DNA of 64,000 bases. It comes from Marinilabiliaceae bacterium (lineage in GTDB: Bacteria > Bacteroidota > Bacteroidia > Bacteroidales > Marinilabiliaceae). Both the position numbers and the translations under genes were made by a program. Location of the stretch: positions 16,103 to 80,102 of the forward strand of contig JBNKGY010000001.1 in NCBI GenBank assembly GCA_050290065.1. The letters are read 5' to 3'. Numbering within the stretch: the first letter of the stretch is position 1; every line of letters begins with the position of its first letter. The notes beneath the pieces were generated by a model. It worked only from the letters and a program-made list of their open reading frames with translations. It was not told where the DNA came from and made no database searches. Shown one piece after another: positions 17,466 through 44,364 of this stretch.

Positions 17466-17469
17466 TTAT

Positions 17470-21049: not shown

Positions 21050-21057
21050 CAAATTTA
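21050..21057 (-). promoter_or_regulatory. Bacteroidota -7 promoter element
   Basis: Minus strand TAAATTTG, 27 nt upstream of the ATG at 21023. Confidence 0.55.
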
Positions 21058-21719: not shown

Positions 21720-21735
21720 TACTAAGTAAAGATCT

Positions 21736-23430: not shown

Positions 23431-23448
23431 TCAAAGTAATTTAAAGTT

Positions 23449-23760: not shown

Positions 23761-23779
23761 AAATTAATTTTAACAAATT

Positions 23780-26560: not shown

Positions 26561-26569
26561 GTGTAAATT

Positions 26570-27028: not shown

Positions 27029-27030
27029 TA

Positions 27031-27510: not shown

Positions 27511-27513
27511 CGA

Positions 27514-28383: not shown

Positions 28384-28400
28384 AGCACAAAAAGAGAACC

Positions 28401-29303: not shown

Positions 29304-29313
29304 TGGTGAATAG

Positions 29314-29784
29314 ATGAATCAATATTTACAACATTTTTTATATCCATCCTCTCTTTTCGTCAGCAAAGAACCTTTTTTGGTTAAAACCATATTAGGCTCG
29401 TGTGTTGCAATATGTTTATGGGATTCACGATTGAAAATAGGAGGTATTAATCATTACATGCTACCACATTGGAATGGTAATGATTTAGCTTCGCCAAAAT
29501 ATGGAAATATTGCAATAGACAAGCTAATTGATAAATTGCTTTTTCATGGATCAAGAACCGAAGATTTGCAAGCGAAAATATTTGGAGGTGGAGAATTAAT
29601 GCAAACAGGAAATTCAAGAACATTAATTGGAGAACGAAATATTCGTGTGGCCAGAATAATGCTTGAAGAAAAAAATATTCCAATTGTTGCTTCCAGTACA
29701 GGTGGAAAAAGAGGTCGAAAAATCATATTTTTTACCGATACTGGAGAAGTGAGACATAAATTATTGGATAAAAAGAACCCATAA
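29314..29784 (+). CDS. cheD: CheD chemoreceptor glutamine deamidase
   Basis: TILGSCVA, GGINHYMLP, KIFGGG, IGERN, GG..GRKI.F. Confidence 0.93.
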   Translation: MNQYLQHFLYPSSLFVSKEPFLVKTILGSCVAICLWDSRLKIGGINHYMLPHWNGNDLASPKYGNIAIDKLIDKLLFHGSRTEDLQAKIFGGGELMQTGNSRTLIGERNIRVARIMLEEKNIPIVASSTGGKRGRKIIFFTDTGEVRHKLLDKKNP

Positions 29785-29875
29785 ATGATAATTTGATTCT
29801 TAAATAAACTAAGCATCATTTTTTTTTATATATTTCTTATTAATAACATTCATTTTAATAAGATAACCTTGTACT

Positions 29876-30955
29876 ATGCGGATGAAAAAAATTCGGGTAT
29901 TAGTAGTTGATGATTCAGCTGTAGTTAGACAAAGCCTTTCAAGTATTTTAGGTTCGGACCCAGAAATAGAAGTGATGGGTACAGCGGCTGACCCTATTAT
30001 TGCTGTAAAAAAGATTATGAAGGAGATACCTGACGTTATTACGTTAGATATCGAAATGCCAAGAATGGATGGGTTAACATTCTTGCGTAAAATTATGTCA
30101 CAACACCCAATTCCTGTTGTGATTATCTCATCACTTACAAGCGAAGGTACAGAGGTAGCGATGAAAGCACTTGAGTATGGTGCTGCCGAAATTATTGGTA
30201 AACCGGCGATGAATGCCGCTAAATTTATTAATGAATCAAAGATTGTGATCTGCGATGCTGTTAAAGCAGCAGCGCATGTGAAATTATCGAGAAAGAAAAT
30301 TAAAGTACCGCCTACCAATATAGAAGTAAAACCTAAATATAGTGCTGACGTTATTCTTGAAAAAGCTTCCGTGTCAAATAGAATATCGGTAACAGATAAA
30401 GTTATTGTATTAGGAGCTTCAACAGGAGGAACTGAAGCCATCAGATCCTTTCTTAAAAATCTACCCGCAAAAATGCCTGGAATTGCAATTGTTCAGCATA
30501 TGCCTGAAGGATTCACAAGATCATTTGCTAACAGTTTAAATAACATCTGTAATTTAGAAGTTAAGGAGGCAGAAAATGGCGATAAACTTTATCAAGGTAG
30601 AGTTCTTATTGCGCCGGGAAATTACCATATGCTGTTAAAAAGAGTAGGTAAAGAGTATTTTGTGGAGGTAAAAGAAGGACCTTTGGTAAACAGGCATCGT
30701 CCGTCTGTGGATGTGCTATTTAGAAGTGCTTCAAGATATGCAGGTAATAATGCAATGGGTATTTTGTTGACCGGAATGGGAAATGATGGTGCAAAGGGGT
30801 TGTTGGAACTTAAGGAATCAGGTGCAGAAACAATAGCCCAGGATGAACAAAGTTCTGTTGTTTATGGTATGCCAAAGGAAGCAGCAAAACTTGGAGCTGC
30901 CAATCATATTTTAGGATTAGAGCAGATTGCTCCTTTCCTAATAAAGTCTCTTTAA
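29876..30955 (+). CDS. cheB: CheB methylesterase (REC plus esterase)
   Basis: [18 protein letters not shown]; triad motifs [19 protein letters not shown]. Confidence 0.96.
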
Positions 30956-31061: not shown

Positions 31062-32939
31062 GTGAAAAAGCTTGATTTAAATAACATATTAAGAAAATAT
31101 ACTTTTAGAGGAATTCTTCTTGGATTTTTTATTGTTCTAATTGTGTTTCTGTTGAATTTAAGTTCAACTGTTTTTATGCAAACAAACAGGACGTTTGCTG
31201 ATATGTTATATCTGTTCCCAGGAATGTGGATTTTATTGGTCTTACCTTTTATTACCGGACTTTTTGGATATCTGTTTGCATTAAATTTTGTAAAAATAAT
31301 TAGGAAGCAACGAAAATACATTAAAAGTGAAACCAAAAGAGCAGATAAGGTTCTAAAATTTATTAATAATTTACGTCAGGGTAATTTTAGCAGTACAGAG
31401 TTAGTTACGGATAAAAAAGATCAATTAAGCAGATCACTACTAAAATTAAGAGATTATCTTGTTAAAAGTAAAAACGAACAAGAACAAAGAAGAATAGAGG
31501 AAGAACAACGAAATTGGGTAACTCATGGGGTAGCTCAATTTGCTGAAATACTGCGTAAGAATAATGATAATCTGGAAGAACTTTCATTTAATATTATTAG
31601 TTACCTGGTTAATTACTTAAATATTAATCAGGGTGGTTTTTATTTGTTAAATGAGAATGCAAAAGGAGACAGGTTCTTTGAATTATCAGCATGTTTGGCT
31701 TTTGATAGAAAAAAATATGCAGATAAAATAATTCAATGGGAAGAAGGTTTAATAGGAAGATGTGGGATTGAAAAAGGTACTATTTATATGACTGATGTAC
31801 CCAATGATTATATTACAATAACATCTGGTTTAGGTCAAACCAATCCGTCTGCCATTCTATTAGTTCCTTTAAAGGTGAATGATGAAATTTATGGAGTTAT
31901 CGAGTTGGCTTCATTTTCTGAGTTTCAACCTTTTGAAATAGAATTTGTTGAGCGTACGGCAGAAAGTATTGCATCTACCATATCTACGGTTCAAATCAAT
32001 ATTCAGACAACAAAATTACTTCGTGAAACTCAAATTCAAGCTGAAAGAATGGCTCAGCAGGAAGAAGAGTTACGTCAAAACCTTGAAGAAATGCAGGCTA
32101 CTCAAGAAGAGTCTGATCGTAGAGAAGTTGAAATGAAAGGTATTCTTGAAGCTATTGATAACTCAGCTATTAGTTGTGAGTTTGCTGTGGATGGATCATT
32201 GATTTCGGTTAATCAACTATTTTTACAAACATTCAAATATCTTCCTGAAGAAATAGAAGGTCAGAATTTAAAAATATTGATTTTTCAGGATGATGTAGAA
32301 GACCTGAGTAAAACGCTTTCTGAACTTAAAGGAGGGCATAATTTTAAGGGAAGAGTAAGAAGAAGAACAAAACTTGGAGAAGAAATATTTCTGCTTACAA
32401 CATATACACCTGTAATAGATAATCAAGGAGACATTATCAAGATTTTGAGTCTCGAAAATGATGTTACAGATCAAGTTTACATGGAAGAGCAAATGAAAAG
32501 CTCCAAAGAGGAGCTTGGAAAAATGCTGGAACAAGCCAGAGACGAGATGAAAGAGCAGTTTAAAGAAATTGAAGATGTTAAAATTCGAAACGAAAAAACT
32601 CTTGAAGGTGCTCTTGATGCAATCATCACAACAAATGAAGAGGGGATCCTTGAATTTTTTAATGCAGCGGCAGAAAAACTCTGGGGATATGAAAGAAATG
32701 AAGTGTTGGGAGAACATATCTCCCTGTTATTTTCTGATGATACCGCTAAGAATGATCAATTTGTGAAGGCCTATGTTACAACTGAAGAATCTAAAATTAT
32801 AGGGGAAAGAAAAGAAGTACCAATAAAGAATAAATTTGGAGATGAAATACCTGTTTTATTTCTTCTTTCTGAGGCTCAGGTTGGAGGGAATAAGTCTTTT
32901 ACAGCGTTTATTCAAAATGTAGAAGTAGAGTTATTTTAA
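31062..32939 (+). CDS. Membrane GAF-coiled coil-PAS-PAS protein with no enzymatic output domain
   Basis: Two TM segments; GAF (EGLIGRC..EK, TSGLG..P, LLVPL, GVIELAS); QQEEELRQNLEEMQATQEE helix; two PAS-like repeats (N.AAEKLWGY); ends VEVELF. Confidence 0.8.
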   Translation: MKKLDLNNILRKYTFRGILLGFFIVLIVFLLNLSSTVFMQTNRTFADMLYLFPGMWILLVLPFITGLFGYLFALNFVKIIRKQRKYIKSETKRADKVLKFINNLRQGNFSSTELVTDKKDQLSRSLLKLRDYLVKSKNEQEQRRIEEEQRNWVTHGVAQFAEILRKNNDNLEELSFNIISYLVNYLNINQGGFYLLNENAKGDRFFELSACLAFDRKKYADKIIQWEEGLIGRCGIEKGTIYMTDVPNDYITITSGLGQTNPSAILLVPLKVNDEIYGVIELASFSEFQPFEIEFVERTAESIASTISTVQINIQTTKLLRETQIQAERMAQQEEELRQNLEEMQATQEESDRREVEMKGILEAIDNSAISCEFAVDGSLISVNQLFLQTFKYLPEEIEGQNLKILIFQDDVEDLSKTLSELKGGHNFKGRVRRRTKLGEEIFLLTTYTPVIDNQGDIIKILSLENDVTDQVYMEEQMKSSKEELGKMLEQARDEMKEQFKEIEDVKIRNEKTLEGALDAIITTNEEGILEFFNAAAEKLWGYERNEVLGEHISLLFSDDTAKNDQFVKAYVTTEESKIIGERKEVPIKNKFGDEIPVLFLLSEAQVGGNKSFTAFIQNVEVELF

Positions 32940-32954: not shown

Positions 32955-33797
32955 GTGGGGGACATAACATTTAAAACGTATTTAGAAGAGCTAAAGAAGC
33001 ATACACCATATAATTTTTGTGATTACTCAGACAATTCAATTCAAAGAAGAATAGATAAAGTATTGAAGGATCACAATATGGATATGGATCAGCTTTTGTA
33101 TAAAACAAAAACTGATGCGTATTTTGTTGAAAGCCTGGTTGATGAAATTACGGTAAACACAACTGAGCTTTTTAGGAATCCTGAAACTTGGGAATATTTA
33201 TATAAGAACGTATTACCACTTCTTAACAAAAAGAAAACTATTAATATTTGGCATGCTGGATGTTCAACAGGTCAGGAAGTTTATTCTAATTTGATATTGT
33301 TGAATGAATTAGGATTAATGGACAGGGTAAAAGTGGTTGCAACTGACATTAATCAAAAGGTGATAAGAGTTGCGAAAAATGCAGAATATAATTATAGTTA
33401 CAATAGTAGTTATATTGAAGCTTATAAAACTTTGATGGATAAAGTTAATCCAAAGGCTAATAAATTTGAATATTATTGTGATATAGATGAGCATTCAGAT
33501 GTTTTTAAATTCAAAAAATTTATTGCTGAGAAGCCTATTTTTAAAAGACATGATTTGGTAGCAGAACCAATTCCCTTTTATCAGAAATTTGATATCATAT
33601 ATTGTCGTAACGTATTAATATATTTTAATCCAGAGTTACAAATGAATATTGTCCGCAAATTCTTTGATAAGTTGTATGATGGAGGAGTATTAGTTTTAGG
33701 TTCGCATGAGGCATTACATGGTTTTTTTAAAACCAGATTTATTAAGCACGGAATGGTCTATACAAAAAGTAATACATTTCATTTTAAATATAAATAG
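32955..33797 (+). CDS. cheR: CheR-family methyltransferase (intact motifs)
   Basis: ITVNTTELFRNP, IWHAGCSTGQEVYS, ATDIN, FDIIYCRNVLIYF, GSHE. Confidence 0.9.
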   Translation: MGDITFKTYLEELKKHTPYNFCDYSDNSIQRRIDKVLKDHNMDMDQLLYKTKTDAYFVESLVDEITVNTTELFRNPETWEYLYKNVLPLLNKKKTINIWHAGCSTGQEVYSNLILLNELGLMDRVKVVATDINQKVIRVAKNAEYNYSYNSSYIEAYKTLMDKVNPKANKFEYYCDIDEHSDVFKFKKFIAEKPIFKRHDLVAEPIPFYQKFDIIYCRNVLIYFNPELQMNIVRKFFDKLYDGGVLVLGSHEALHGFFKTRFIKHGMVYTKSNTFHFKYK

Positions 33798-33800
33798 AAA

Positions 33801-34607
33801 ATGGCAGTTGTTCCTACTATTTACGATATCAGGGAAATAACACCTTTGTTAAAGGAGGTACTAAATATTGATTTGTATAATTTTACGTTGTCTTTTTTGC
33901 GTAGGAGATTTGCGTTTGTTTTTAGTCAGTTAAATATTAAAAGTGTAGAAGGATTTAAAGAAGATATTAAGAAAGGTAAATTAATTGATGAATTTAGCTA
34001 TGCTTTTTCTGTTCCTGATACTGAAATGTTTAGGGATCCATCATTCTGGAGAACCCTTAAGAATAAAATTTTACCTCAATTTGGAGAAAAGCCATTTAAT
34101 ATTTGGATGCCTGATTTGGTTTCAAATGAAGAACTTTTTTCATTATTAGTTATATTGGAGCAGGATAGGCTAATCGATCAAGTAAAGATTTATTGCAACG
34201 TGGATTGTTCATTAAGGTCATTAGAACTGAAGAAAGGTTCTATTAATGGCAAAAGTATAGAAATTTCCATGCAGAATTTTAAAAGATTAGAACTAGATAG
34301 TCAATTTGAAGATTACTTTACATATGATAATAAATTTATTTATATAAAAGAAGAATTACTTAAGAATATTGAATACATAAATGGTAATTTCTTTGTAAAC
34401 GGTCCGACAGAAAATATATCTTTTTGTTTATATCGAAATAGAATGATTTACTTTAATTTAAAATTACAACAATCAGCTGAAGAGGAACTAGTGAAATATA
34501 TAGAAAAAGGCGGGTTTTTAGCTTTGGGGATTAAAGAGAAAATCAGCCAATCTAATAGAGATTTATTTGATGAAGTTGACTCTAATGAACAAATCTATAA
34601 AGCTTGA
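33801..34607 (+). CDS. Degenerate CheR-like protein (probable pseudo-methyltransferase)
   Basis: Keeps TEMFRDPSFW and RN.MIYF...LQ, but the SAM loop reads IWMPDLVSNEE instead of IWxAGCSTGEE. Confidence 0.75.
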   Translation: MAVVPTIYDIREITPLLKEVLNIDLYNFTLSFLRRRFAFVFSQLNIKSVEGFKEDIKKGKLIDEFSYAFSVPDTEMFRDPSFWRTLKNKILPQFGEKPFNIWMPDLVSNEELFSLLVILEQDRLIDQVKIYCNVDCSLRSLELKKGSINGKSIEISMQNFKRLELDSQFEDYFTYDNKFIYIKEELLKNIEYINGNFFVNGPTENISFCLYRNRMIYFNLKLQQSAEEELVKYIEKGGFLALGIKEKISQSNRDLFDEVDSNEQIYKA

Positions 34608-34618
34608 TTAAACAATAA

Positions 34619-35194
34619 ATGAATAATAAAAGAGCGTCATATTATAAAGCAGTAGTAATTGGTGGTTCTGCAGGTAGTTTTTCAGTTGTATCAAAAATTT
34701 TGGCCAATATAAAACCTGATTTTGAATATCCAATTGTGGTATGTTTACATCGTTTAAAGCATATCCGTACAGGATTATTAGAAGGGCTTAAAATTAAATC
34801 AAAACTTCCGGTAATAGAGCCTTACGATAAAGATAGTCTCAAAGGTGGAAATGTTTATTTGGCACCTTCAAATTATCATATGTTTGTTGAGTTTGATTCA
34901 ACCATTTCATTGACGGGTGAGGATGTGTTAAATCATAGCAGACCATCGATTGATTATACTTTTATATCATCGGCAACTTCATTTCGTGAGAAAATGATAG
35001 GAATTTTATTAACAGGAGCTAATAAAGATGGTGCTTTGGGAATGAAGGAAGTATTTCATAAAAGAGGATATACAATAGTGCAGGATCCGAATACTTGTGA
35101 TGTAGATACAATGCCAAAATCAGCTCTTCAATTATTTAATCCAGATGAAGTATTATCGCCAGATGCAATTATTGATTTTTTGAATAATCTTTAA
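34619..35194 (+). CDS. cheB: Stand-alone CheB methylesterase (no REC domain)
   Basis: IGGSAGS (Ser), CLHR (His), TGANKDGA (Asp), SRPSID, QDP. Confidence 0.88.
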   Translation: MNNKRASYYKAVVIGGSAGSFSVVSKILANIKPDFEYPIVVCLHRLKHIRTGLLEGLKIKSKLPVIEPYDKDSLKGGNVYLAPSNYHMFVEFDSTISLTGEDVLNHSRPSIDYTFISSATSFREKMIGILLTGANKDGALGMKEVFHKRGYTIVQDPNTCDVDTMPKSALQLFNPDEVLSPDAIIDFLNNL

Positions 35195-35198
35195 AGAG

Positions 35199-35957
35199 AT
35201 GTTAATGAATAAAAAAGAATTATTTCGATTATATATATTAGCAAGTCTTACGTTTACGATGGCCTTGATTAAGTATTTATTTGAGGATAAATATTTTATT
35301 TTTGAAATTTTGTCGTTCATACTTTTCTTAGGTATTATATATTTTGGAGATAAACTTATTAGGGTCAGAACAATTGAGAAAATTCAATTTAATAGAGAAA
35401 AAGAGAAGATAAATAGTAGTTATGAAGAAAAGATAAATCAATTAAATAATACGATTGAGCAATTAACAAAGGAGCAATCAGAACGACTTATCTTAGCTAA
35501 TGAAGTTGAATTAATTGGAGATAAAATCAATGATAGTATTAATAATATACAGCATAAGGATGAGTTGGCAAATCAGTTGTTAATTCAATTTTCTAAATAT
35601 TATGAAATTGGAATAGGAATATGTTATTTATTGTCAGAACATTCTGGAAAATTGAGCGTAAAAGGTGTCTATGGAATTCTGGATGAAGAAAAACCGACAG
35701 ATGTTGAAGTAACTGATGGATTACATGGACAATCAATTTCTGATAGAAAACCAATCATAATCCAGGATATTGATGAGAACTATTTTAATATTGAGTCTTG
35801 TTTGGGTTCTTCAAAGCCTAAGCATTTGTATTTATTACCAATTACAAAAAATGAAACCGTTATTGGTTTAATTGAATTAGCTACATTTAAAATCATTAAT
35901 ATTGAAAAGCATTGGCAAATAATCAATGATAAAATTGCAAATGTACTTATCTCATAA
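35199..35957 (+). CDS. Membrane coiled-coil-GAF protein
   Basis: Two TM segments, then a coiled coil and a GAF (DGLHGQ..., ESCLG..KP, LYLLPI, GLIELAT). Confidence 0.75.
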   Translation: MLMNKKELFRLYILASLTFTMALIKYLFEDKYFIFEILSFILFLGIIYFGDKLIRVRTIEKIQFNREKEKINSSYEEKINQLNNTIEQLTKEQSERLILANEVELIGDKINDSINNIQHKDELANQLLIQFSKYYEIGIGICYLLSEHSGKLSVKGVYGILDEEKPTDVEVTDGLHGQSISDRKPIIIQDIDENYFNIESCLGSSKPKHLYLLPITKNETVIGLIELATFKIINIEKHWQIINDKIANVLIS

Positions 35958-35966: not shown

Positions 35967-38576
35967 ATGTTGATGAAAAGAATGATTAAGAACATTAAAA
36001 AATATATGGATTTCTCTATCCTTCAGGAACGAGATCGCTTTTTTATTATTATTAGTGTTATACTAGTTTTGTTATTGGTATGGGCAGGATTTATAAATTT
36101 TACTGGTTATCTGTTTACAATAGATTCAATTCTTAGTATTCATACTTCATGGTTAACTTGGTTTATTGATGCAATCATAGCTTTAATTCCTGTTACTTTT
36201 GTTGTTTTAATTAATTATGATCGTGAGACAAAGAAAAAATATAAAAAGGAAATAACTCGTTTAAAAGAAGGATTAAATTCTAACATTCAAATTGCGAACT
36301 TAATACGTAAAGGTGACTTCAATTCCATTTTAAATTATAAAAGTGATAATTCTGAAACTCTAGTTAGTCTTGCTAAAGATCTGCTTGAAACCAATCAGAA
36401 AGAGGAAGAGTTAAGATGGATTACAAAAGGAAAAGAACTCATCAATGATATTTTGCGAACATACAGATCTATTGATGAACTATCCATTGAACTTCTTAAA
36501 GGTATCATTACCTATAGCGGCGGTGCGCAGGGGGCATTTTATATATTAGAGGGAGATAAATTAGTTAGTCGGGCAACCTATGCTTTTAATAAACAAAGGT
36601 TTGTAAAACAAGAATATCATATTGGGAAAGGATTAGTCGGTCAGGTTGCATTCGAAAAGCAAATGATATACAGAACTGAAATTCCTGACGATTATTTTAC
36701 AATTACCTCTGGAATATTAGGCGATCAAAAACCAAGAAGTCTTGTCATATTGCCTTTATTGCAAGAGGAGGAATTGCAAGGAATAATAGAACTTGGATTT
36801 TTAAATGATCATTTTCCAACTTATAAATTAAATTTTGCAGAGGAATTGAGTAGTATGATTGGGCGAACCATTTATGCTCAAAAAATAAATGCTAAAACGG
36901 AGTATCTATTAAAAGAGTCTCAGGAAATGACTGTTACTCTTAGGCATAATGAAGAAAAATTAAAGGAAAGTGCCCAGGAAATGATGATTGCCCAGGAGGA
37001 TTTGGAAAAATCAAATGAACTACTGGAAACGAAAATTCAAGAGGTTGAAAATGGAAGAAAGAGGTTAGTGGCCTTACTAACAAATGCCTCTGAATTTATT
37101 TCAATTTATGATGAAAACCAAAGATTATTATTCGAAAGTCCTTCAGTGAAAAGAATATTAGGGTATAATGATTCTGATAAAGTTTCCGGAATGGACCCCG
37201 ATATGTTAACACCTAGAGGCTATAGAACCATTAATAATTTATTTACATATTTAAAACAAACGCCTGGAGGAGAGAGTGTTGCACAATATTCATACTTAAA
37301 AAAGAGTGGGGAAAAATTGTTTCTTGAAACTAAAGGAAAAAATTTACTTCATGATCAAGCTATTAAAGGAATAATCTTTAATACTCAGGATATTACCGAA
37401 AGAATTAGAGCAGAGAAAGAAGAACGGATGAAAAGTCGGATGCAATCACTTTCCGAAAATTCTCCGGATATGATTATGCGTATCAACACTTCTGGTAAGT
37501 TAGTATATGCAAATCCTGCAGTTAGTAATTTTACAGGTATTCCTATAGGAGAAATAACAAAGAAAAGAGTTAATGAACTTCAGATTGATGAAAGATTTAT
37601 TGATTTTGTTAATCATGTTCTGGTAAAAGTTAAAAAGGTACATGAACAAATAAATGAAGAAATAGAAGTTATTTCTCAGTATGGTAACCAGATAATGGAA
37701 ATAAAAGCTATTCCTGAATTGAATTCTGATAAAATATTGGAGTCAGTTCTTTTTGTGGCTCATAATATTACAGAGGTTAAAAAGATTGAACAAGAGATCA
37801 AAGAAAAAAATAAAAAAATATCTGATAGTATCAATTATGCACAAAGAATTCAAACTTCGATATTGCCAGATACCAATTTTATACAACGGCATTTTCCAAG
37901 ATCTTTTATCTTTTATCGTCCCAAAGATGTTGTTAGTGGTGATTTTCCATGGTTCGTCAAAAAAGATGAAACTTTTTATGTTGCAGCCGTAGACTGTACT
38001 GGTCATGGTGTACCTGGTGCATTATTATCTTTTATAGGGTATTTCTTACTCAATAATATAGTTAATATTGATGATGGATTTAATGCTGCCCATATATTAG
38101 AACATTTACATCAAGGTGTTCGAACTACATTAAAGCAAAATGAAGAAGGTAATAATGGTCGCGACGGGATGGATTTGGCTTTATGTAAAATAGACAAAAA
38201 AAATAAAGTTATTCAATTTGCCGGGGCTCATAATCCATTATATTTGCTGAGAAAAGGAGAATTGATAGAATATAAAGGAACACGTAAGGGGATTGGAGGA
38301 AAACCTTTATTAAAAAAACGTGAAAAGGATTTTGAAAATCATGAAATCCAATATCAGGATGGGGATAAGATTTTTATTTTTTCTGATGGTTTACCTGATC
38401 AGTTAGGTGGAGAAAAAAGAAAAAAGTATCAATCTAAACGAATTAGGGAAGCGCTAACTGAAAAAGAAGATCTGACAATGGCTCATTTTTCTCGACATTT
38501 TTCATCTGATTTTTATGAATGGATGGGTGATGAGAAACAAGTTGATGATGTTTTACTTATTGGAATTGAATTGTAA
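35967..38576 (+). CDS. SiaA-like PP2C/SpoIIE Ser/Thr phosphatase with TM-GAF-coil-PAS-PAS input
   Basis: SINYAQRIQ.SILP, PKDVVSGDFPW, AVDCTGHGVPGA, DGMD, FSDG..DQ.GG, DDVLLIG. Confidence 0.9.
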   Translation: MLMKRMIKNIKKYMDFSILQERDRFFIIISVILVLLLVWAGFINFTGYLFTIDSILSIHTSWLTWFIDAIIALIPVTFVVLINYDRETKKKYKKEITRLKEGLNSNIQIANLIRKGDFNSILNYKSDNSETLVSLAKDLLETNQKEEELRWITKGKELINDILRTYRSIDELSIELLKGIITYSGGAQGAFYILEGDKLVSRATYAFNKQRFVKQEYHIGKGLVGQVAFEKQMIYRTEIPDDYFTITSGILGDQKPRSLVILPLLQEEELQGIIELGFLNDHFPTYKLNFAEELSSMIGRTIYAQKINAKTEYLLKESQEMTVTLRHNEEKLKESAQEMMIAQEDLEKSNELLETKIQEVENGRKRLVALLTNASEFISIYDENQRLLFESPSVKRILGYNDSDKVSGMDPDMLTPRGYRTINNLFTYLKQTPGGESVAQYSYLKKSGEKLFLETKGKNLLHDQAIKGIIFNTQDITERIRAEKEERMKSRMQSLSENSPDMIMRINTSGKLVYANPAVSNFTGIPIGEITKKRVNELQIDERFIDFVNHVLVKVKKVHEQINEEIEVISQYGNQIMEIKAIPELNSDKILESVLFVAHNITEVKKIEQEIKEKNKKISDSINYAQRIQTSILPDTNFIQRHFPRSFIFYRPKDVVSGDFPWFVKKDETFYVAAVDCTGHGVPGALLSFIGYFLLNNIVNIDDGFNAAHILEHLHQGVRTTLKQNEEGNNGRDGMDLALCKIDKKNKVIQFAGAHNPLYLLRKGELIEYKGTRKGIGGKPLLKKREKDFENHEIQYQDGDKIFIFSDGLPDQLGGEKRKKYQSKRIREALTEKEDLTMAHFSRHFSSDFYEWMGDEKQVDDVLLIGIEL

Positions 38577-38602
38577 CGTATACGAACTAAATATTATTAG
38601 TA

Positions 38603-39178
38603 ATGGGAAATGCTCAAGATAATCATAGTTTTCTGGATTTTGCTTACCAGCTGTACCGGACTATGAAAACGAATGAAATCAGTCTTGTTTATGAAGGAGA
38701 AGTAACTCAGGAGATTACAAAAACTTTTACTTCATTAACAGAAAAAAGTCTGGCAAAAAGTGAAGAGTCAAATGCTGTTCAGCGAAAAGTATTTAACGTA
38801 ATGGTTGAATGTTTACAAAATATTAGTAAACATGCCGATTCATTATCTGAAGATGATGAAAATGAACGCAGGGGAATTGTAATGGTTAGTAAAGGTGAAG
38901 ATAGCTATAAAATTATTACAGGTAATGTAATTAGAAATGAAAAAGTACCTGGTTTAAGAGAAAACCTGGAGCAGGTCAATTCTCTTGATAAGGAGGGGCT
39001 TTCAAAGTTATTTAAAACCCAAATGCGTGAAGGTAAAATTTCCGATAAAGGAGGTGCAGGTCTTGGTTTAATTGACATTGCAAAGAAAACAGGAAGTGTA
39101 CTAACATACCAGTTTAAAGAATTAAATGAGGAAGTATCATTTTTTATTCTTACATCTACAATTAAACGAAATAATTAA
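38603..39178 (+). CDS. SiaB-family (DUF6272-like) GHKL Ser/Thr kinase
   Basis: YEGE..Q, RKVFNVMVECLQNISKH, IITGN.I, GGAGLGLIDIAKK. Confidence 0.85.
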   Translation: MGNAQDNHSFLDFAYQLYRTMKTNEISLVYEGEVTQEITKTFTSLTEKSLAKSEESNAVQRKVFNVMVECLQNISKHADSLSEDDENERRGIVMVSKGEDSYKIITGNVIRNEKVPGLRENLEQVNSLDKEGLSKLFKTQMREGKISDKGGAGLGLIDIAKKTGSVLTYQFKELNEEVSFFILTSTIKRNN

Positions 39179-39203
39179 AAAACTAATATAAAATATCAAA
39201 ACC

Positions 39204-39584
39204 ATGGAAGTTATCAATATTCAAGGAACAGATGATACTCCTAATGTAATTTTAGATAAGGACAGCGGGAAATTTGAAATTTCTGGACGTTCATTACCAG
39301 AGGACGTAAATATGTTTTATGAGCCTATTATGAAATGGATAGATGGATACTCCGAAAGTCCTAATGAGAATACTGAATTTAATTTTAAGCTAGAGTACTT
39401 TAATACTGCATCTTCAAAAATAATACTGGATATTTTACTAAAGTTCGAAGAAATAGTTGAAAATGGTAATGATGTTAAAATCAGATGGCATTATCACGAA
39501 GAAGAGGAAGATATGCTTGAAGCTGGTGAAGAGTATGCAGATATAGTTGAAATACCATTTGAATACGAAGCTTACACTGATTAA
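39204..39584 (+). CDS. SiaC-family (DUF1987) phospho-switch protein
   Basis: T..TP.V, ISGRSLPED...FY.P, LEYFNTASSK (Thr68), W.Y...EEDM.E.GEEY. Confidence 0.88.
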   Translation: MEVINIQGTDDTPNVILDKDSGKFEISGRSLPEDVNMFYEPIMKWIDGYSESPNENTEFNFKLEYFNTASSKIILDILLKFEEIVENGNDVKIRWHYHEEEEDMLEAGEEYADIVEIPFEYEAYTD

Positions 39585-39614
39585 TACAAGATTACTTGTT
39601 GCAAACTTTAATTT

Positions 39615-42600
39615 ATGAGTGAAGAAATACTAAAAGCCCTTATGCAACTGTTTGGATTAATAGCCAAACAGGATGATGGAGTACAGGAAAGTGAAATAGA
39701 ATTTGTTAAAAACTTTTTGAAGCAGCAACTCACAGCAGAAGCTGTAGATGAATATTTCACGCTATTTCAGAAACACTCAAAAAATAAAAAAAGCAGTAAT
39801 TCAAATAACGATGGTAAGGTTCAACTTACCTCAATGAAAGATTCTGTTCGGATAATTGGAATCTGCAAAAAAATAAACAAGCAGCTTAATAAAGAGCAAA
39901 AGGTTGTTGTATTAGTGCGTATGTACGAATTAGTAAATGCTGATCGTAAATTTACTGATCAACGTATGGCTATTATCAATACTGCTGCCGATGTTTTCAG
40001 ATTCTCTGAGATTGAAAAGAAAAATATAGAGGCGTTTGTTATTAATGAAGATCTCAAAAATCTCGACTTCGAGAATTTATTAGCCATTACTGCAAATGAC
40101 AAACAAGGAGAATATAGAGAGCACATTCAGGCTAAAAAATTAGATGGAAGCATTCTAATATTAAGGGTGAAAAGTGCAGATTTATATTTTCTAAGATATA
40201 CCGGTACTCAGGAAATATTTTTAAATGGTTTATTATTAAGCCAAAGACGTATTTATCTCTTCCCCAAAGGAAGTTTTTTAAAGTTACCTGCAAGAGCACC
40301 TATTTATTATACTGATGTAGTTGGGCATTTTATGACTGACGCATCAACACCTAAAATCTCTTATATAGTTGAAAATTTGGGTTTTCAATTTAAAAATGGA
40401 GGAATTGGTTTAAGAGATGTTAATCTGGCAGAAGAACATGGTAGATTAATTGGTATAATGGGTGCGAGTGGTGCTGGAAAAACAACTCTGCTAAATGTTT
40501 TATCAGGAATTGAAAGCCCTAGTTCTGGTGAGGTTAGAATAAATGGTATAAACCTGCACAAAGAAAGGGAAAAAATTGAAGGCGTTATTGGACTGATTCC
40601 TCAAGATGATCTTTTAATCGAAGAACTTACTGTTTTTGAGAACTTATATTATAATGCAAAGTTATGTTTTAAGGATAAAGCTGAAGAAGAGCTTATTCAA
40701 ATGGTTAATGATACTTTGCAACATCTAGGTTTATATGCGCGTAAAGATTTAAAGGTTGGATCACCATTGAATAAAATGATTAGTGGAGGCCAACGTAAAA
40801 GGTTAAATATTGCGTTGGAATTAATACGAGAACCCTCCATTTTATTTGTTGATGAACCTACATCAGGATTATCCTCCAGGGATTCAGAAAATGTAATGAA
40901 CCTTTTAAGGGAATTAACTCTAAAAGGGAAATTGATTTTCGTTGTTATTCATCAACCCTCTTCAGACATTTATAAAATGTTTGATAAGATGTTTATCCTT
41001 GATACTGGAGGATACCCAGTATATTATGGTAATCCTAGTGAATCTCTAATCTATTTTAAAAGATTAGATGCTCAGATCAATAGTGAACAAGGTGAATGTC
41101 CCCAATGTGGTAATTTAAATCCTGAAATGGTATTTAATATCATTGATGCTAATGTAATAGATGAATACGGAAACTACACAAATAAAAGAAAAACCAGTCC
41201 TCCTGAATGGAATGAACATTATCTGAAAAATATTAAAATTCCAAAGGTAAAAGATGTGGAATCTTCGCCTCCTCGTTCTTTAAATATACCTTCGTGGTTA
41301 AAACAATTTAATATATATACGCTTAGGGATTTCTTTTCAAAGATATCGAATAAGCAATATATACTTCTTAATATTCTAGAAGCACCCATATTAGGGTTTA
41401 TATTGGCCTTTTTAATCAGATATATAGTAGACCCGGATTCAAATATTTACATTTTTCGCGATAACGAAAATATCCCGCCATATATTTTTATGGGTATTGT
41501 TGTTGCTTTGTTTTTTGGATTAATTGTAAGTGCAGAAGAAATATTTAAAGATGCTAAAATACTTAAAAGGGAAGCATTTTTGAATCTTTCCAGATCTAGT
41601 TATTTAGTTTCAAAGGTGTTGATTCTTTTTACTATTTCTGCAATTCAAATGGGTTTGTTTGTGGGAGTCGCAAATACTGTTCTGGGTATAAAGGAAATGT
41701 ATTTTGAGTTTTGGTTGGCTTTGTTTTCTGTTTCTGCTTTTGCCAATATTCTTGGATTAATATTATCAGCTTCCTTTAATTCTATTGTTACCATTTATAT
41801 TTTAATTCCTCTGGTAATGATTCCTCAGATGGTTTTGGGAGGTGCAATGTTTACTTTCGATAAATTAAATAGAGACATCTCAAGTGCCGATAAAGTACCT
41901 TTAATAGCAGAGTTTATGCCCTCAAGATGGATTTATGAAGGATTAATGGTAGATCAGTACAAAAATAATAAGTTTCAACAATTATTTTTTGATGTAGAAC
42001 AAGAAGAAAGTACTACCGATTTTAAGGTGGTGTATTATATACAAGAGCTTGAAGATATTTTAGATGAATGTGAGAATTACCTAACCAATGGCAAACCAGA
42101 AGAAGAGAGAGAAGATTTTATCTCAAATCTAAAATTGTTGAAAAATGAAATTGAAAATGAAAACCGCAGAATTAATGATATTCAATTTGTAAAGGTTGAT
42201 CAACTTTCAGAAGATCATTTTAATAATGATATAAAATCAGCTTTAGCTATTCATTTAGAAGCATTAAAAAATTATTATTCAGATCGTTTTTTTGCGGCTA
42301 GTACAAAAAAGGAGAAAATGATTAATCTGGCCATGAGAAAATATGGTAAAGAGAAATATAATGCCATAAAAGACATATACTTAAATGAAAGCATTGCAGA
42401 TATTGTAAGAAAAGTTTTTGAAAAAAATAAAATCCTTCGAGATGGAGATAGACTGATCCAAAATGTTGATCCAATATATCAGTTACCAGAATCAGAAGGT
42501 GTTTTTTCTTTTAGAACTCATTTTTTTGCGCCTAAAAAGTATTTCATGGGTCATTACTACGAAACGATATGGTTTAATATTGCAATGGTATGGTTATTTA

Positions 42601-42686
42601 CTATAGTTCTTTATATCATTTTGTATTTTGATTTATTACGCAAATCCTTTATTTTCATTGGAGAATTAAAATATCTTAAAAAGTAA
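39615..42686 (+). CDS. ABCG/White-like fused ABC transporter with TerB-like and FHA-like N-terminal region
   Basis: GASGAGKT, PQDD, ISGGQRKR, FVDEPTSGL, IHQP; ABC-2-type TM block (PLVMIPQMVLGG, PSRW.YEGL); N-terminal LF.LIAK.DD helical domain. Confidence 0.85.
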   Translation: MSEEILKALMQLFGLIAKQDDGVQESEIEFVKNFLKQQLTAEAVDEYFTLFQKHSKNKKSSNSNNDGKVQLTSMKDSVRIIGICKKINKQLNKEQKVVVLVRMYELVNADRKFTDQRMAIINTAADVFRFSEIEKKNIEAFVINEDLKNLDFENLLAITANDKQGEYREHIQAKKLDGSILILRVKSADLYFLRYTGTQEIFLNGLLLSQRRIYLFPKGSFLKLPARAPIYYTDVVGHFMTDASTPKISYIVENLGFQFKNGGIGLRDVNLAEEHGRLIGIMGASGAGKTTLLNVLSGIESPSSGEVRINGINLHKEREKIEGVIGLIPQDDLLIEELTVFENLYYNAKLCFKDKAEEELIQMVNDTLQHLGLYARKDLKVGSPLNKMISGGQRKRLNIALELIREPSILFVDEPTSGLSSRDSENVMNLLRELTLKGKLIFVVIHQPSSDIYKMFDKMFILDTGGYPVYYGNPSESLIYFKRLDAQINSEQGECPQCGNLNPEMVFNIIDANVIDEYGNYTNKRKTSPPEWNEHYLKNIKIPKVKDVESSPPRSLNIPSWLKQFNIYTLRDFFSKISNKQYILLNILEAPILGFILAFLIRYIVDPDSNIYIFRDNENIPPYIFMGIVVALFFGLIVSAEEIFKDAKILKREAFLNLSRSSYLVSKVLILFTISAIQMGLFVGVANTVLGIKEMYFEFWLALFSVSAFANILGLILSASFNSIVTIYILIPLVMIPQMVLGGAMFTFDKLNRDISSADKVPLIAEFMPSRWIYEGLMVDQYKNNKFQQLFFDVEQEESTTDFKVVYYIQELEDILDECENYLTNGKPEEEREDFISNLKLLKNEIENENRRINDIQFVKVDQLSEDHFNNDIKSALAIHLEALKNYYSDRFFAASTKKEKMINLAMRKYGKEKYNAIKDIYLNESIADIVRKVFEKNKILRDGDRLIQNVDPIYQLPESEGVFSFRTHFFAPKKYFMGHYYETIWFNIAMVWLFTIVLYIILYFDLLRKSFIFIGELKYLKK

Positions 42687-42742: not shown

Positions 42743-43666
42743 ATGTTAAAGAAATTATTGTACACAACGGCTATATTATGTGAGATTTTACTTTTCTCTG
42801 CATGTACTGGAAATTCCGGAAAGGGAAGCAGTGCAGGTGCAGATGATTTCTCTATTTCAGATTCTGCATTAAATCAGGATGCTCCATTACAACTTTCAGA
42901 AGAAATTATTGGTGATGTAATTCAAAATATATCCTCACCGGTTGAAATGGCTGCATTAATTAAAAAGTCTGGAGTAGATTTTTCTCAGAAAATCCTGAAT
43001 AAGCCTGAACGTATTCAAGATTATAATACAAGCTTTAAAAGAGCTTTAAATTTAGGTGTGTTTAGTGCCGATTTAGGATACATAAATACCTTTGATAAAA
43101 ATACTATTGTTATTTCTTATTTATTATCTATTAAGGAACTCTCCGAAGGTATTAAAGTAGGGCAGTTTTTTGATTTCAATTCCCTTAAGCAATTAGCCAC
43201 CAATAGTAATAATTTGGACTCGTTAATGGAGATTTCTGTTAACAGTTTTAATAAAATGGATTCATACTTAAGAGAACAAAATAGAAGCAACGTTAGTACT
43301 TTAATTGTTACAGGAGCATGGATTGAAGGATTATATATTGCAGGAAATGTGATTAAAGAAACAAAAAATCAGGAGTTGATTAATCGTATTGGTGAGCAAA
43401 AAGATATCATTGATATTTTACTTATTGTTTTGAATAACTTTAGTAGCGATCCTAACTTTGCTGAAATGGTTACCAGAATGGAACAAATTAAGCAAGCTTA
43501 TTCAGGAGTAAAAATTACAACAGAAGTCGGTGAACCAAAGAGTATTGAAAGAAATGGTACTTTAATAATTGTTCAGGATGAAATTAGTCATGTTGAAATT
43601 ACTCAGGAACAAATTGATTTAATTATAAAGGAAATTTCCAATTTAAGAGATTATATTGTGTTGTAG
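42743..43666 (+). CDS. Uncharacterised helical lipoprotein
   Basis: Lipobox FSAC followed by a Ser/Gly linker; repeated helical motifs (ALNLGVFSADLGY, GAWIEGLYI). Confidence 0.7.
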   Translation: MLKKLLYTTAILCEILLFSACTGNSGKGSSAGADDFSISDSALNQDAPLQLSEEIIGDVIQNISSPVEMAALIKKSGVDFSQKILNKPERIQDYNTSFKRALNLGVFSADLGYINTFDKNTIVISYLLSIKELSEGIKVGQFFDFNSLKQLATNSNNLDSLMEISVNSFNKMDSYLREQNRSNVSTLIVTGAWIEGLYIAGNVIKETKNQELINRIGEQKDIIDILLIVLNNFSSDPNFAEMVTRMEQIKQAYSGVKITTEVGEPKSIERNGTLIIVQDEISHVEITQEQIDLIIKEISNLRDYIVL

Positions 43667-43856: not shown

Positions 43857-44312
43857 ATGAAAAAGGTATTTATTTTATCCATATTACTTATTTCTATATT
43901 TTCCATTTCAGGTTCTGCACAATGTGGAGAAGATTTACTGAAAACAGCACTCAAAGAAATGGGTGATACGCAGTATATCAAGGATTTTACCATTAACTTA
44001 ATGCAGGACAAAAAAGATGTTAAAACTGGTTATGTGAAGTTTAGCGTTATATTGAATAGTAGGAGCCATTATAAATTTAATACCGTAAATGGGGTAGGTA
44101 ATCCTGAAAAGGTTATTATGCAATTATATGATGGAGATAAGCTTCTTCATTCAAATTTTGCAAATGGGAAAATGTATGATGCTATTGAATATGTTTGTAG
44201 AAAAACAAAAGTCTATAGTTTAGTTTTTTCATTTAAAGGAGGTGCAGAAGGTTGTGCTAAATCAGTAATGTCTTTAGTTAAACAATATTCTGCCGGAGAA
44301 ATGAATTTTTAA
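43857..44312 (+). CDS. Small exported hypothetical protein with three Cys in the mature part
   Basis: Sec signal ending near SAQ; Cys in AQCG, YVCR and EGCA. Confidence 0.65.
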   Translation: MKKVFILSILLISIFSISGSAQCGEDLLKTALKEMGDTQYIKDFTINLMQDKKDVKTGYVKFSVILNSRSHYKFNTVNGVGNPEKVIMQLYDGDKLLHSNFANGKMYDAIEYVCRKTKVYSLVFSFKGGAEGCAKSVMSLVKQYSAGEMNF

Positions 44313-44335
44313 TCTGTAATCAGATATAAAACAAG

Positions 44336-44364
44336 AGCGTTGCCCGAAAAAGCAACGCTTTTTT
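44336..44364 (+). terminator. Intrinsic terminator closing the signalling block (probably bidirectional)
   Basis: AGCGTTGC-8 nt loop-GCAACGCT followed by a T run, between convergent genes. Confidence 0.8.

What the first reader, a model, noticed from the sequence alone, without database searches (positions are those of the whole stretch)
35967..42686. SiaABC without SiaD: an ABC transporter occupies the effector position
Seen: PP2C phosphatase, SiaB-like kinase and SiaC-like protein in the canonical order, with YFNT(68)ASS conserved. The next gene, 30 nt downstream, is a 1023-aa ABC transporter rather than a GGDEF protein. Known: P. aeruginosa SiaC is phosphorylated on Thr68 by SiaB, dephosphorylated by SiaA, and activates SiaD. 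Inference: SiaC here may regulate the transporter directly, giving a c-di-GMP-independent Sia output.
Basis: partly seen in the sequence, partly recalled or inferred. Interest (0 to 1): 0.75.

Follow-up and report, generated by a model that had tools for sequence, protein, structure and literature searches.

The report
SiaB/SiaC phospho-switch wired to ABC exporter
A threonine-phosphorylation switch known from Pseudomonas, where it turns on a c-di-GMP-making enzyme, is here and in more than 140 related Bacteroidota loci welded to an ABC exporter instead, which points to a conserved, untested way of gating a transporter from a chemotaxis-like sensing pathway.

Summary
Window 35967-42686 encodes a sensor PP2C phosphatase, a SiaB-family kinase, a SiaC-family protein with Thr68 in YFNT(68)ASS, and 30 nt later a 1023-aa ABCG-type transporter. 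No GGDEF domain was found in the window.

The order SiaB-SiaC-ABC-lipoprotein-small secreted protein holds in every sufficiently long locus of 80 genome loci. SiaC lies directly upstream of the transporter in 68 of 78 informative metagenome loci. It is also present in Cytophagales (Persicobacter, Microscillaceae). In Carboxylicivirga the five-gene block lies apart from the phosphatase.

- These genes are the 3' end of a roughly 23-kb chemotaxis-like cluster.
- The operon continues through two envelope proteins to a strong terminator.
- The transporter has a conserved N-terminal TerB-like plus FHA-like module.

SiaB/SiaC pairs without a cyclase are not rare in Bacteroidota. A paralogous transporter subfamily lacks SiaBC.

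Direct SiaC-transporter binding is well motivated but inferred only. The closest precedents are MlaB-MlaF and Rv1747. I rate this a new variant of a known kind, of moderately high interest.

The parts
21195..30955 (+). Chemosensory core on the same strand, upstream: YfiR-like DUF4154, MCP (HAMP+MCPsignal), STAS protein, CheY, Hpt protein, CheA, two CheW, CheR, a 300-aa histidine-kinase-like HATPase, CheD, and CheB (REC+methylesterase).
   Evidence: Pfam and NCBIfam hits. The same genes lie upstream in relatives L001 and L002.
31062..32939 (+). TM-GAF-PAS-PAS protein (625 aa). It is a paralogue of the sensory part of the phosphatase but has no output domain.
   Evidence: Pfam. BLASTP against the PP2C protein gives E=2e-34 over about 560 aa.
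32955..35957 (+). CheR2, a CheR-like CheR3, CheB2 (methylesterase without a receiver domain), and a 252-aa GAF protein.
   Evidence: Pfam. CheR-CheB-GAF precedes PP2C-SiaB-SiaC-ABC in most metagenome loci and in Persicobacter and Microscillaceae.
35967..38576 (+). SiaA-like sensor phosphatase: 2 TM, GAF, PAS, and a SpoIIE/PP2C domain (aa 667-868).
   Evidence: Pfam SpoIIE at 67 bits. NCBIfam SiaA model positions 392-654 match at E=2e-51, well below the equivalog cut-off.
38603..39178 (+). SiaB-family Ser/Thr kinase (GHKL-like, DUF6272).
   Evidence: NCBIfam NF038262 at 176 bits (cut-off 85). PDB 6KKO_A at E=5e-15.
39204..39584 (+). SiaC-family (DUF1987, STAS-like) phosphoprotein. The T68 codon is at 39405-39407.
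   Evidence: Pfam PF09345 at 142 bits. PDB 6KKO_C at E=1e-17 with T68 aligned. YFNT(A)SSK is invariant in 142 distinct linked homologues.
39615..40043 (+). Transporter aa 1-143: TerB-like helical bundle.
   Evidence: Pfam TerB at 34-39 bits. AF2 N-terminal model has pLDDT 88. Foldseek finds PG1108 (2H5N) at TM about 0.6. Several residues are conserved only in the SiaC-linked subfamily.
40077..40304 (+). Transporter aa 155-230: small beta domain with an FHA-like fold.
   Evidence: The 26 best Foldseek PDB matches are all FHA domains (MEK1, Rad53 FHA1, CEP170, RNF8), and EssC and DgcB FHA domains appear lower in the list. They are weak: E from 9e-3, TM 0.45-0.5 over about 80 columns. There is no Pfam FHA hit at E<=10.
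40410..41969 (+). Transporter ABC ATPase domain and ABC-2 membrane domain (ABCG-type, NBD before TMD).
   Evidence: Pfam ABC_tran and ABC2_membrane. TIGR00955 at 245 bits over aa 267-801. ABCG1/G5 match over aa 266-751. Walker A GASGAGKT, signature ISGGQ, Walker B FVDE and the H-loop His are intact in the translation.
41970..42686 (+). Transporter C-terminal extension: long helices (aa 792-935) plus a last predicted TM helix (aa 984-1017). It is poorly conserved.
   Evidence: Full-length AF2 model; conservation summary.
42743..43666 (+). 307-aa predicted lipoprotein (signal peptide ending ...LFSAC). It belongs to no described family.
   Evidence: Translation. No Pfam, NCBIfam or PDB hit. It follows the transporter in nearly all loci.
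43857..44312 (+). 151-aa secreted protein with no described family. It is the last gene of the operon.
   Evidence: Translation. No hits. Its position is conserved.
44333..44362 (.). Strong bidirectional intrinsic terminator (11-bp stem, T tracts on both strands) that closes the operon.
   Evidence: No comparable terminator lies between 35967 and 44312.

Best explanation
The finding is the output end of a conserved Bacteroidota signalling-to-transport pathway.

Proposed mechanism: a sensor PP2C phosphatase and a SiaB-family kinase set the phosphorylation state of Thr68 on a SiaC-family, STAS-like protein. One phospho-form of that protein binds the cytoplasmic part of the co-encoded ABCG-type exporter and gates its ATPase and transport activity. 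The most likely docking site is the exporter's conserved TerB-like/FHA-like N-terminal module. Alternatively it is the ATPase domain, as MlaB binds MlaF. The phosphatase itself is probably tuned by the neighbouring CheR/CheB/GAF proteins and the upstream Che core. The exporter works with the downstream lipoprotein and small secreted protein in the envelope.

Shown here: the domain identities, Thr68 invariance, the operon layout, the wide conservation and mobility of the SiaB-SiaC-ABC-lipoprotein-P151 block, and the absence of a nearby GGDEF gene.

Inferred: the physical SiaC-transporter contact, which phospho-form is active, the sign of regulation, the exported substrate, and the link to the Che core.
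For: 1. Family assignments and T68 alignment.
2. Tight same-strand packing: gaps of 9, 26, 25, 30, 56 and 190 nt, with a single strong terminator after the last gene.
3. In the 80 genome loci, every one long enough has SiaB-SiaC-ABC-Lipo-P151.
4. The metagenome scan used a consensus-first alignment, so its 80 loci fall into 29 clusters at 70% identity. Of these, 66 have SiaC directly upstream on the same strand (median gap about 40 nt). Two more loci are truncated but show the same arrangement, and 3 have SiaB/SiaC divergently adjacent.
5. Distant members keep the linkage: Microscillaceae L085, Persicobacter L174, L090, L091 and L086, down to 27% identity in the N-terminal domain.
6. In Carboxylicivirga and in L043 the block lies apart from the PP2C/CheR/CheB genes. 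The kinase and SiaC therefore travel with the transporter, not with the phosphatase.
7. In L090 the PP2C and SiaB are fused into one protein while SiaC stays free. This fits SiaC as the diffusible output.
8. SiaC and SiaB are the best-conserved proteins of the cluster.
9. The residues with which P. aeruginosa SiaC grips the SiaD stalk (R103, L107, D114, D29, Y31; PMC8457831) are replaced here by D103, A107, I114, R29 and L31. Each is nearly invariant within the family, as expected for a different fixed partner.
10. The transporter's N-terminal module is highly conserved and carries residues specific to the SiaC-linked subfamily.
11. No GGDEF gene occurs in the window or in 2.1 Mb of related loci, with a positive control.
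12. Precedent: the STAS protein MlaB binds the ABC ATPase MlaF with Thr52 at the interface (PMC7367683).
Against: - No interaction, phosphorylation or transcript data exist. No RNA runs contain this organism.
- Synteny cannot distinguish SiaC from SiaB as the transporter-binding partner. It also cannot distinguish direct regulation from co-expression.
- A paralogous transporter subfamily has the same TerB/FHA-like N-terminus but no SiaBC nearby: L087, L088, L109, L147, L149, L156, L159, and L173 in Geofilum, which also has the linked copy. The N-terminal module is therefore not solely a SiaC dock.
- The subfamily-specific residues may reflect phylogeny alone.
- The FHA-like assignment is weak, and canonical phosphothreonine-binding motifs are not evident.
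- The rest of the genome was not searched for GGDEF proteins.
Confidence: 0.5

Rival explanations
1. Classical partner switch with the kinase as effector. The SiaB-like kinase binds and holds the transporter (or another target), as RsbW/SpoIIAB hold sigma factors. Unphosphorylated SiaC only titrates the kinase away.
For: SiaB is as tightly linked to the transporter as SiaC, and nearly as conserved. SiaB-family proteins are GHKL anti-sigma-kinase-like. Some loci carry two tandem SiaB copies (L091, L120).
Against: In the one studied system the output goes through SiaC, not SiaB (PMC8457831). In L090 SiaB is fused to the phosphatase while SiaC stays free. The SiaC alpha2/alpha3 surface is invariant beyond what binding the kinase and phosphatase alone would seem to require.
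Confidence: 0.15
2. Co-expression only. The Sia-like module controls some other target elsewhere in the genome (a cyclase, sigma factor or Che component). The transporter, lipoprotein and P151 are simply part of the same regulon and operon.
For: Other Bacteroidota SiaB/SiaC pairs have no effector beside them (Bernardetia, Persicobacter plasmid). The targets of such modules therefore need not be adjacent. A paralogous transporter works without SiaBC. The whole genome was not searched.
Against: SiaB-SiaC adjacency to this transporter survives inversion or relocation of the block, divergent orientation, and separation from the phosphatase, across two classes. That pattern is typical of interacting proteins. 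No alternative effector gene is conserved in the block. No GGDEF gene occurs in 2.1 Mb of loci.
Confidence: 0.18
3. Reverse polarity. The transporter is the sensor: its transport cycle or TerB-like domain reports substrate or metal load. Through SiaC/SiaB it feeds information back to the phosphatase and Che apparatus, by flux sensing as in BceAB-type systems.
For: The N-terminal TerB-like domain belongs to a family linked to metal and stress sensing (Pfam TerB). The module lies at the end of a sensory cluster that has no other obvious output.
Against: The cluster already has many dedicated sensor domains: MCP, GAF and PAS. In known partner switches the phosphoprotein is downstream of the kinase/phosphatase pair. 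No evidence specifically favours this reading.
Confidence: 0.05

Closest known systems
SiaABCD of Pseudomonas aeruginosa (PA0172-PA0169)
   Same: The gene order is the same: phosphatase, kinase, phosphoprotein. The PP2C domain, the SiaB-family kinase and the DUF1987/SiaC protein are homologous. The Y65-x-N67-T68 phospho-loop is conserved.
   Different: There is no GGDEF cyclase; an ABCG-type exporter occupies the fourth position. The sensory part of the phosphatase differs (GAF-PAS here). SiaC and SiaB score below NCBI's equivalog cut-offs (88 vs 150 and 88 vs 225 bits). The residues that contact the SiaD stalk are replaced. The module is embedded in a Che-type cluster.
MlaB-MlaF of the E. coli MlaFEDB lipid transporter
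   Same: A small STAS-fold protein binds and regulates an ABC transporter. A Thr equivalent to the phospho-site lies at the interface, and a phosphomimetic substitution weakens binding (PMC7367683). SiaC is reported to be STAS-like (PMC8457831, PMC7647112).
   Different: MlaB has no known kinase or phosphatase, and its phosphorylation is unproven. Here a dedicated kinase and phosphatase are encoded alongside. The transporter class also differs (MlaE/MlaF versus a fused ABCG-type half-transporter). No sequence homology between SiaC and MlaB was tested.
Rv1747 of Mycobacterium tuberculosis (FHA-FHA-ABC exporter regulated by PknF)
   Same: It is an ABCG-like exporter with N-terminal regulatory domains of FHA fold. 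It is encoded beside a Ser/Thr kinase and positively regulated by Thr phosphorylation (PMC3138270).
   Different: Rv1747 has two canonical FHA domains and a Hanks-type kinase that phosphorylates the transporter itself. Here the FHA-like fold is weak and non-canonical. The kinase is GHKL-type, and the phospho-acceptor is a separate STAS-like protein.
Wsp and other alternative-function chemosensory pathways
   Same: A complete Che-type core (MCP, CheA, CheW, CheR, CheB, CheD, CheY) is clustered with a non-flagellar output. This comparison rests on general knowledge of Wsp and was not tested here.
   Different: The Wsp output is a REC-GGDEF cyclase. Here the only candidate output is a PP2C/SiaB/SiaC switch plus an exporter. 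How the Che core connects to the phosphatase is unknown.

Membership tests
SiaABCD system | PP2C-type phosphatase SiaA encoded first | tested here: inconclusive
   The SpoIIE/PP2C domain is present and matches positions 392-654 of the SiaA model (E=2e-51). The whole protein scores 175 bits against a 700-bit equivalog cut-off. The N-terminal sensor part is different.
SiaABCD system | SiaB-family protein kinase | tested here: met
   NF038262 at 176 bits (cut-off 85). 6KKO_A at E=5e-15. The score is below the strict SiaB equivalog cut-off (88 vs 225).
SiaABCD system | DUF1987/SiaC protein with the phospho-acceptor Thr68 | tested here: met
   PF09345 at 142 bits. 6KKO_C at E=1e-17 with T68 aligned. 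T68 is invariant in 142 homologues. The score is below the SiaC equivalog cut-off (88 vs 150).
SiaABCD system | Co-transcribed GGDEF diguanylate cyclase SiaD as the SiaC target | tested here: not met
   The next gene is an ABC transporter. No GGDEF gene occurs in the window or in 2.1 Mb of related loci. The positive control was detected.
SiaABCD system | SiaB phosphorylates and SiaA dephosphorylates SiaC Thr68 | not testable with these tools
   This needs biochemistry or phosphoproteomics.
ABCG / ABC-2 type exporter | ATPase domain N-terminal to an ABC-2 membrane domain, with intact Walker A, signature, Walker B and H-loop motifs | tested here: met
   Pfam ABC_tran + ABC2_membrane. TIGR00955 at 245 bits over aa 267-801, below that subfamily's cut-off of 736. 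ABCG1/G5 match over aa 266-751. The motifs can be read in the translation.
TerB domain | Match to Pfam PF05099 above the gathering score | tested here: met
   33.6-39.1 bits against a cut-off of 24.4. Foldseek finds the TerB-like PG1108 at TM about 0.6.
FHA domain | FHA beta-sandwich fold | tested here: inconclusive
   The 26 top Foldseek PDB matches are all FHA domains, but E is 9e-3 or more and TM is 0.45-0.5 over about 80 columns. The domain is about 75 aa, shorter than typical FHA domains.
FHA domain | Sequence signature (GR, SxxH, NG) that binds phosphothreonine | tested here: not met
   No Pfam FHA hit at E<=10, and no PDB FHA hit with the family profile. Only N204-G205, G219, S187 and Y195 are conserved. 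No conserved Arg or His sits at the expected positions.
Chemosensory (Che) pathway | MCP, CheA, CheW, CheR and CheB encoded together | tested here: met
   Pfam hits for all of them, plus CheD, CheY and Hpt, at 21736-30955.
STAS-protein regulation of an ABC transporter (MlaB-MlaF type) | Physical binding of the STAS-like protein to the transporter's cytoplasmic domain | not testable with these tools
   The structure tool returns neither a complex nor coordinates. Only conserved adjacency is available.

The most novel reading that the evidence does not exclude
A chemotaxis-type receptor array in gliding Bacteroidota does not steer a motor or make a second messenger. It gates an envelope exporter, through a PP2C/SiaB/SiaC threonine switch. 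The phospho-Thr68 form of SiaC is read by the transporter's degenerate FHA-like domain. That would reverse the Pseudomonas logic, in which phosphorylation abolishes partner binding. It would be the first chemosensory pathway with a transporter as its output. It would also be the first natural case of a phospho-regulated STAS-like subunit of an ABC transporter.
Probability: 0.15. Interest if true: 0.85.

Novelty: new variant of a known kind. Interest (0 to 1): 0.62.

Why it matters
Partner-switching modules of the SiaB/SiaC type are widespread, but only one output is known: activation of the SiaD cyclase. This work identifies a second output that is conserved across at least two classes of Bacteroidota, namely an ABCG-type exporter with its own envelope partners.

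If SiaC binds the transporter, three things follow:
- It gives a concrete, testable answer to the question left open for MlaB-MlaF, whether STAS-type subunits of ABC transporters are controlled by phosphorylation.
- It assigns a function to a 9-to-23-gene cluster found in many marine, gut and sediment Bacteroidota.
- It reveals what a Che-type pathway does in a phylum that lacks flagella.

Persicobacter psychrovividus and several Marinilabiliaceae are cultured, so the experiments are feasible.

Tried and rejected
- The genome-contig scan with a SiaC alignment that included the Pseudomonas sequence returned only close relatives, because the best 80 are ranked against the window protein. It therefore could not show what lies beside distant SiaC proteins. 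The plasmid collection gave only a small sample of these.
- The top 120 hits of both protein searches were close orthologues only.
- The sigma-70 promoter scan was uninformative: 62 sites found against 59.5 expected. Bacteroidota promoters also differ from that consensus.
- Pfam at E<=10 and a family-profile search of PDB sequences gave no FHA or other hit for the beta domain or the C-terminal extension. The weak staphostatin and TCR hits were judged to be chance.
- The lipoprotein and P151 have no Pfam, NCBIfam or PDB sequence match.
- No RNA-seq run holds this organism, so co-transcription could not be shown.
- A SiaC-linker-transporter fusion model was considered and dropped. The tool returns no coordinates or inter-domain error, so an interface could not be judged.
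- The full-length transporter model is poor in the membrane part (pLDDT 63). I used it only for domain layout.
- The 'Chlorobi' label of one homologue (P0041/L067) was rejected as evidence of spread beyond Bacteroidota. The protein is 71-72% identical to the window's, and the surrounding locus keeps the same gene order.


Full report
**1. Observation**

The window has about 31% G+C. Its SiaC gene is 100% identical to a contig of a Marinilabiliaceae metagenome-assembled genome (L003, JBNKRV010000220.1).

- 35967-38576 (869 aa): two predicted TM helices, GAF, PAS, and a C-terminal SpoIIE/PP2C domain. The PP2C part matches the C-terminal 260 positions of NCBI's SiaA model (E=2e-51). The whole protein is far below that model's cut-off.
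- 38603-39178 (191 aa): a SiaB-family kinase (NF038262, 176 bits against a cut-off of 85). It matches P. aeruginosa SiaB, PDB 6KKO chain A, at E=5e-15.
- 39204-39584 (126 aa): a SiaC/DUF1987 protein (Pfam 142 bits). It matches P. aeruginosa SiaC, 6KKO chain C, at E=1e-17, and Y65, N67 and T68 align with the same residues there.
- 39615-42686 (1023 aa): starts 30 nt after the SiaC stop codon. It contains TerB, ABC_tran and ABC2_membrane domains.

There is no GG[DE]EF motif in any frame of the window. A GGDEF-domain tblastn also finds nothing. That query detects a real cyclase at E=8e-33 in a control locus.

**2. The surroundings**

The four genes are the tail of one same-strand run from 21195 to 44312. 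Its genes, in order, are:
- a YfiR-like DUF4154 protein, an MCP, a STAS protein, CheY, an Hpt protein, CheA, two CheW, CheR, a 300-aa histidine-kinase-like protein, CheD, and CheB;
- a TM-GAF-PAS-PAS protein that is a paralogue of the phosphatase's sensory half (E=2e-34);
- CheR2, a CheR-like protein, a receiver-less CheB, and a GAF protein;
- the phosphatase, kinase, SiaC and transporter;
- a 307-aa predicted lipoprotein and a 151-aa secreted protein, neither of which matches any family.

Gaps from the phosphatase onward are 26, 25, 30, 56 and 190 nt. The only strong terminator is a bidirectional hairpin at 44333-44362, just after the last gene.

**3. Is the SiaC-transporter linkage conserved?**

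Among close relatives:
- Eighty genome loci from Marinilabiliaceae and a few other Bacteroidales were fetched with SiaC as the query. Every locus that reaches far enough has SiaB-SiaC-ABC-lipoprotein-P151 in that order. In L079 the transporter is split by frameshifts in a long-read MAG.
- In Carboxylicivirga species and in L043, the PP2C/CheR/CheB genes are not upstream. In Carboxylicivirga the upstream genes are the beta-propeller and oxidoreductase genes that lie downstream, on the other strand, in the window. The five-gene block has therefore been inverted or relocated as a unit. SiaB and SiaC stay with the transporter, not with the phosphatase.

Beyond that family:
- I searched 1.84 billion cluster representatives with transporter residues 1-262. 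There are 653 representatives at E<=1e-3, and the full-length ones are about 1000-1050 aa.
- Contexts of distant members that keep the linkage:
  - Microscillaceae L085: CheR-CheB-GAF-PP2C-SiaB-SiaC-ABC-302 aa.
  - Persicobacter psychrovividus L174: the same nine genes.
  - L090: CheW-CheY-CheB-CheA-x-CheR, then a PP2C-SiaB fusion protein, SiaC, ABC and two small genes.
  - L091: SiaB-SiaB-SiaC-ABC.
  - L086: SiaB/SiaC divergent from the transporter, at 27% N-domain identity.
- A metagenome scan was ranked against a family consensus rather than the window protein. It gave 80 loci in 29 clusters at 70% identity:
  - 66 have SiaC directly upstream on the same strand (median gap about 40 nt), and 2 truncated loci show the same arrangement.
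  - 3 have SiaB/SiaC divergently adjacent.
  - 2 have SiaBC about 5 kb away, behind housekeeping genes.
  - 5 have none within 6 kb.
  - 2 are too short to tell.

The loci without SiaBC, together with P0314 and P0353, form divergent groups. In these the lipoprotein gene often precedes the transporter. Geofilum rhodophaeum has both a linked copy (L057) and an unlinked, stand-alone paralogue (L173). The transporter family therefore has a large SiaBC-linked subfamily and at least one SiaBC-free subfamily.

**4. Other SiaB/SiaC pairs**

- On plasmids, a Bernardetia SiaB-SiaC pair has no phosphatase beside it. A Persicobacter plasmid has SpoIIE-SiaB-SiaC followed by an IS element. Neither has a cyclase or a transporter beside it.
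- Azospirillum has SpoIIE-SiaB-SiaC, then a HAMP histidine kinase, then a diguanylate cyclase.

'Sia without SiaD' is thus not unusual. What is special here is the fixed partner.

**5. Properties of the parts**

SiaC:
- T68 and the motif YFNT(A)SSK are invariant in 142 distinct linked SiaC sequences.
- In P. aeruginosa, N67/T68/S69 and R103, L107, E110, D114, D29, Y31, I71 and M75 contact the SiaD stalk, and phospho-T68 clashes with it (PMC8457831).
- Here the phospho-loop and E110 are kept. However, R103, L107, D114, D29, Y31 and I71 are D, A, I, R, L and S. Each is nearly invariant within the family. This is what a different but equally fixed partner surface would look like.
- SiaC and SiaB are the most conserved proteins of the cluster. 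For example, against Marinilabilia salmonicolor they are 85% and 81% identical, compared with 70% for the transporter and 60% for the phosphatase.

Transporter:
- Its core is ABCG-like (TIGR00955 over aa 267-801; ABCG1/G5 in the PDB). The ATPase motifs are intact.
- A model of residues 1-268, built on 36 diverse sequences, is confident (pLDDT 88). It shows a seven-helix bundle (aa 3-143) and a small beta domain (aa 155-230).
- In the Foldseek search, the beta domain's best PDB matches are all FHA domains, but they are weak. The helical part resembles the TerB-like PG1108.
- No sequence method sees an FHA domain, and the canonical phosphothreonine-binding residues are not apparent. I call it FHA-like in fold only.
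- The N-terminal module is strongly conserved. It carries residues conserved only in the SiaC-linked subfamily: K18-Q19-D20-G22, K85-K86, and Q116-R117-M118. This is suggestive, but it is confounded with phylogeny.
- The C-terminal extension is long helices plus a final TM helix, and it is poorly conserved.

**6. Mechanism**

The best-supported reading has four steps:
1. Sensory input acts on the PP2C. This input comes from its GAF/PAS domains, probably from methylation by the adjacent CheR/CheB pair, and from the Che core.
2. The PP2C and SiaB set the phospho-state of SiaC T68.
3. One form of SiaC binds the exporter's cytoplasmic face and gates it.
4. The exporter acts with the lipoprotein and P151.

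The domain identities, the conserved and mobile gene block, T68 invariance and the lack of a nearby cyclase are shown. Every protein-protein step, the sign of regulation and the substrate are inferred.

The rivals are:
- the kinase rather than SiaC is the transporter-binding partner;
- co-expression without contact;
- reverse signalling from the transporter.

**7. Comparison with known systems**

This is not a SiaABCD system, because the defining cyclase is absent, and NCBI's equivalog thresholds are not met. It does use SiaB- and SiaC-family proteins in the same order.

Functionally, the nearest precedents are:
- MlaB-MlaF: a STAS protein bound to an ABC ATPase with Thr52 at the interface. 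Its phosphorylation is unproven (PMC7367683).
- Rv1747: an FHA-bearing ABC exporter regulated by Thr phosphorylation (PMC3138270).

eLife 2021 already suggested that DUF1987 proteins modulate adjacent proteins. I found no paper describing this transporter-linked module or this Bacteroidota Che cluster.

**8. Verdict**

The module is a real, conserved, uncharacterised variant of a known signalling type with a new output.

Noticed in passing
window 21195-30955: A complete Che-type core lies in a non-flagellated Bacteroidota lineage. It opens with a YfiR-like periplasmic protein (DUF4154, TOL_0243 family) next to the MCP. It also contains a STAS protein, a separate Hpt protein and a 300-aa histidine-kinase-like protein. 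YfiR normally represses a diguanylate cyclase, but no cyclase is present here.
   Followed up: partly
window 32955-35957; also L085, L174 and most of L092-L171: CheR, a receiver-less CheB and a small GAF protein are conserved directly upstream of the sensor PP2C, even where no MCP or CheA is nearby (Persicobacter, Microscillaceae). This suggests methylation of a non-MCP substrate, perhaps the phosphatase or the GAF protein.
   Followed up: partly
window 31062-32939: A 625-aa TM-GAF-PAS-PAS protein is a paralogue of the phosphatase's sensory half (E=2e-34) but has no output domain.
   Followed up: partly
L015-L025, L030-L032, L034, L078 (Carboxylicivirga): The five-gene block SiaB..P151 is inverted or relocated relative to the window, with its breakpoint between the PP2C and SiaB. 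I did not determine whether these genomes keep the PP2C/Che genes elsewhere.
   Followed up: partly
L043 (Bacteroidales MAG SZUA-609) 4342-15220: Here the SiaB..P151 block sits among glycosyltransferase and capsule-synthesis genes. This is a possible hint that the exported substrate is a glycoconjugate.
   Followed up: no
L090 6019-7590; L091 693-1816; L120; L135: Several module variants occur: a single protein fusing SpoIIE/PP2C to the SiaB-like domain (L090); two tandem SiaB genes (L091, L120); and one ORF that hits both the SiaB and SiaC models (L135, a human-gut metagenome contig), which may be a fusion or a sequencing artefact.
   Followed up: partly
L173 (Geofilum rhodophaeum) 8001-11117: A second, stand-alone paralogue of the TerB/FHA-like ABC transporter has no SiaBC, lipoprotein or P151 nearby. 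It occurs in a genome that also carries the linked copy (L057).
   Followed up: partly
L172 (Azospirillum oryzae plasmid) 2748-7107: This proteobacterial sia locus has a HAMP histidine kinase inserted between siaC and the diguanylate cyclase.
   Followed up: no
L079 8382-11554: The transporter is broken into four ORFs. The contig name (tig...) suggests a long-read assembly, so frameshift errors are more likely than a pseudogene.
   Followed up: no
window 29809-30441 (-) and 32268-32717 (-): Long antisense ORFs overlap cheB and the GAF-PAS gene. Their low-complexity translations suggest they are not genes.
   Followed up: no
window 13576-21050 (-): The genes upstream on the opposite strand are a V/A-type ATPase subunit, a polyprenyl synthetase, an MMPL/RND-like membrane protein and an FkbO-like chorismatase. 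They are not part of the cluster and I did not study them.
   Followed up: no
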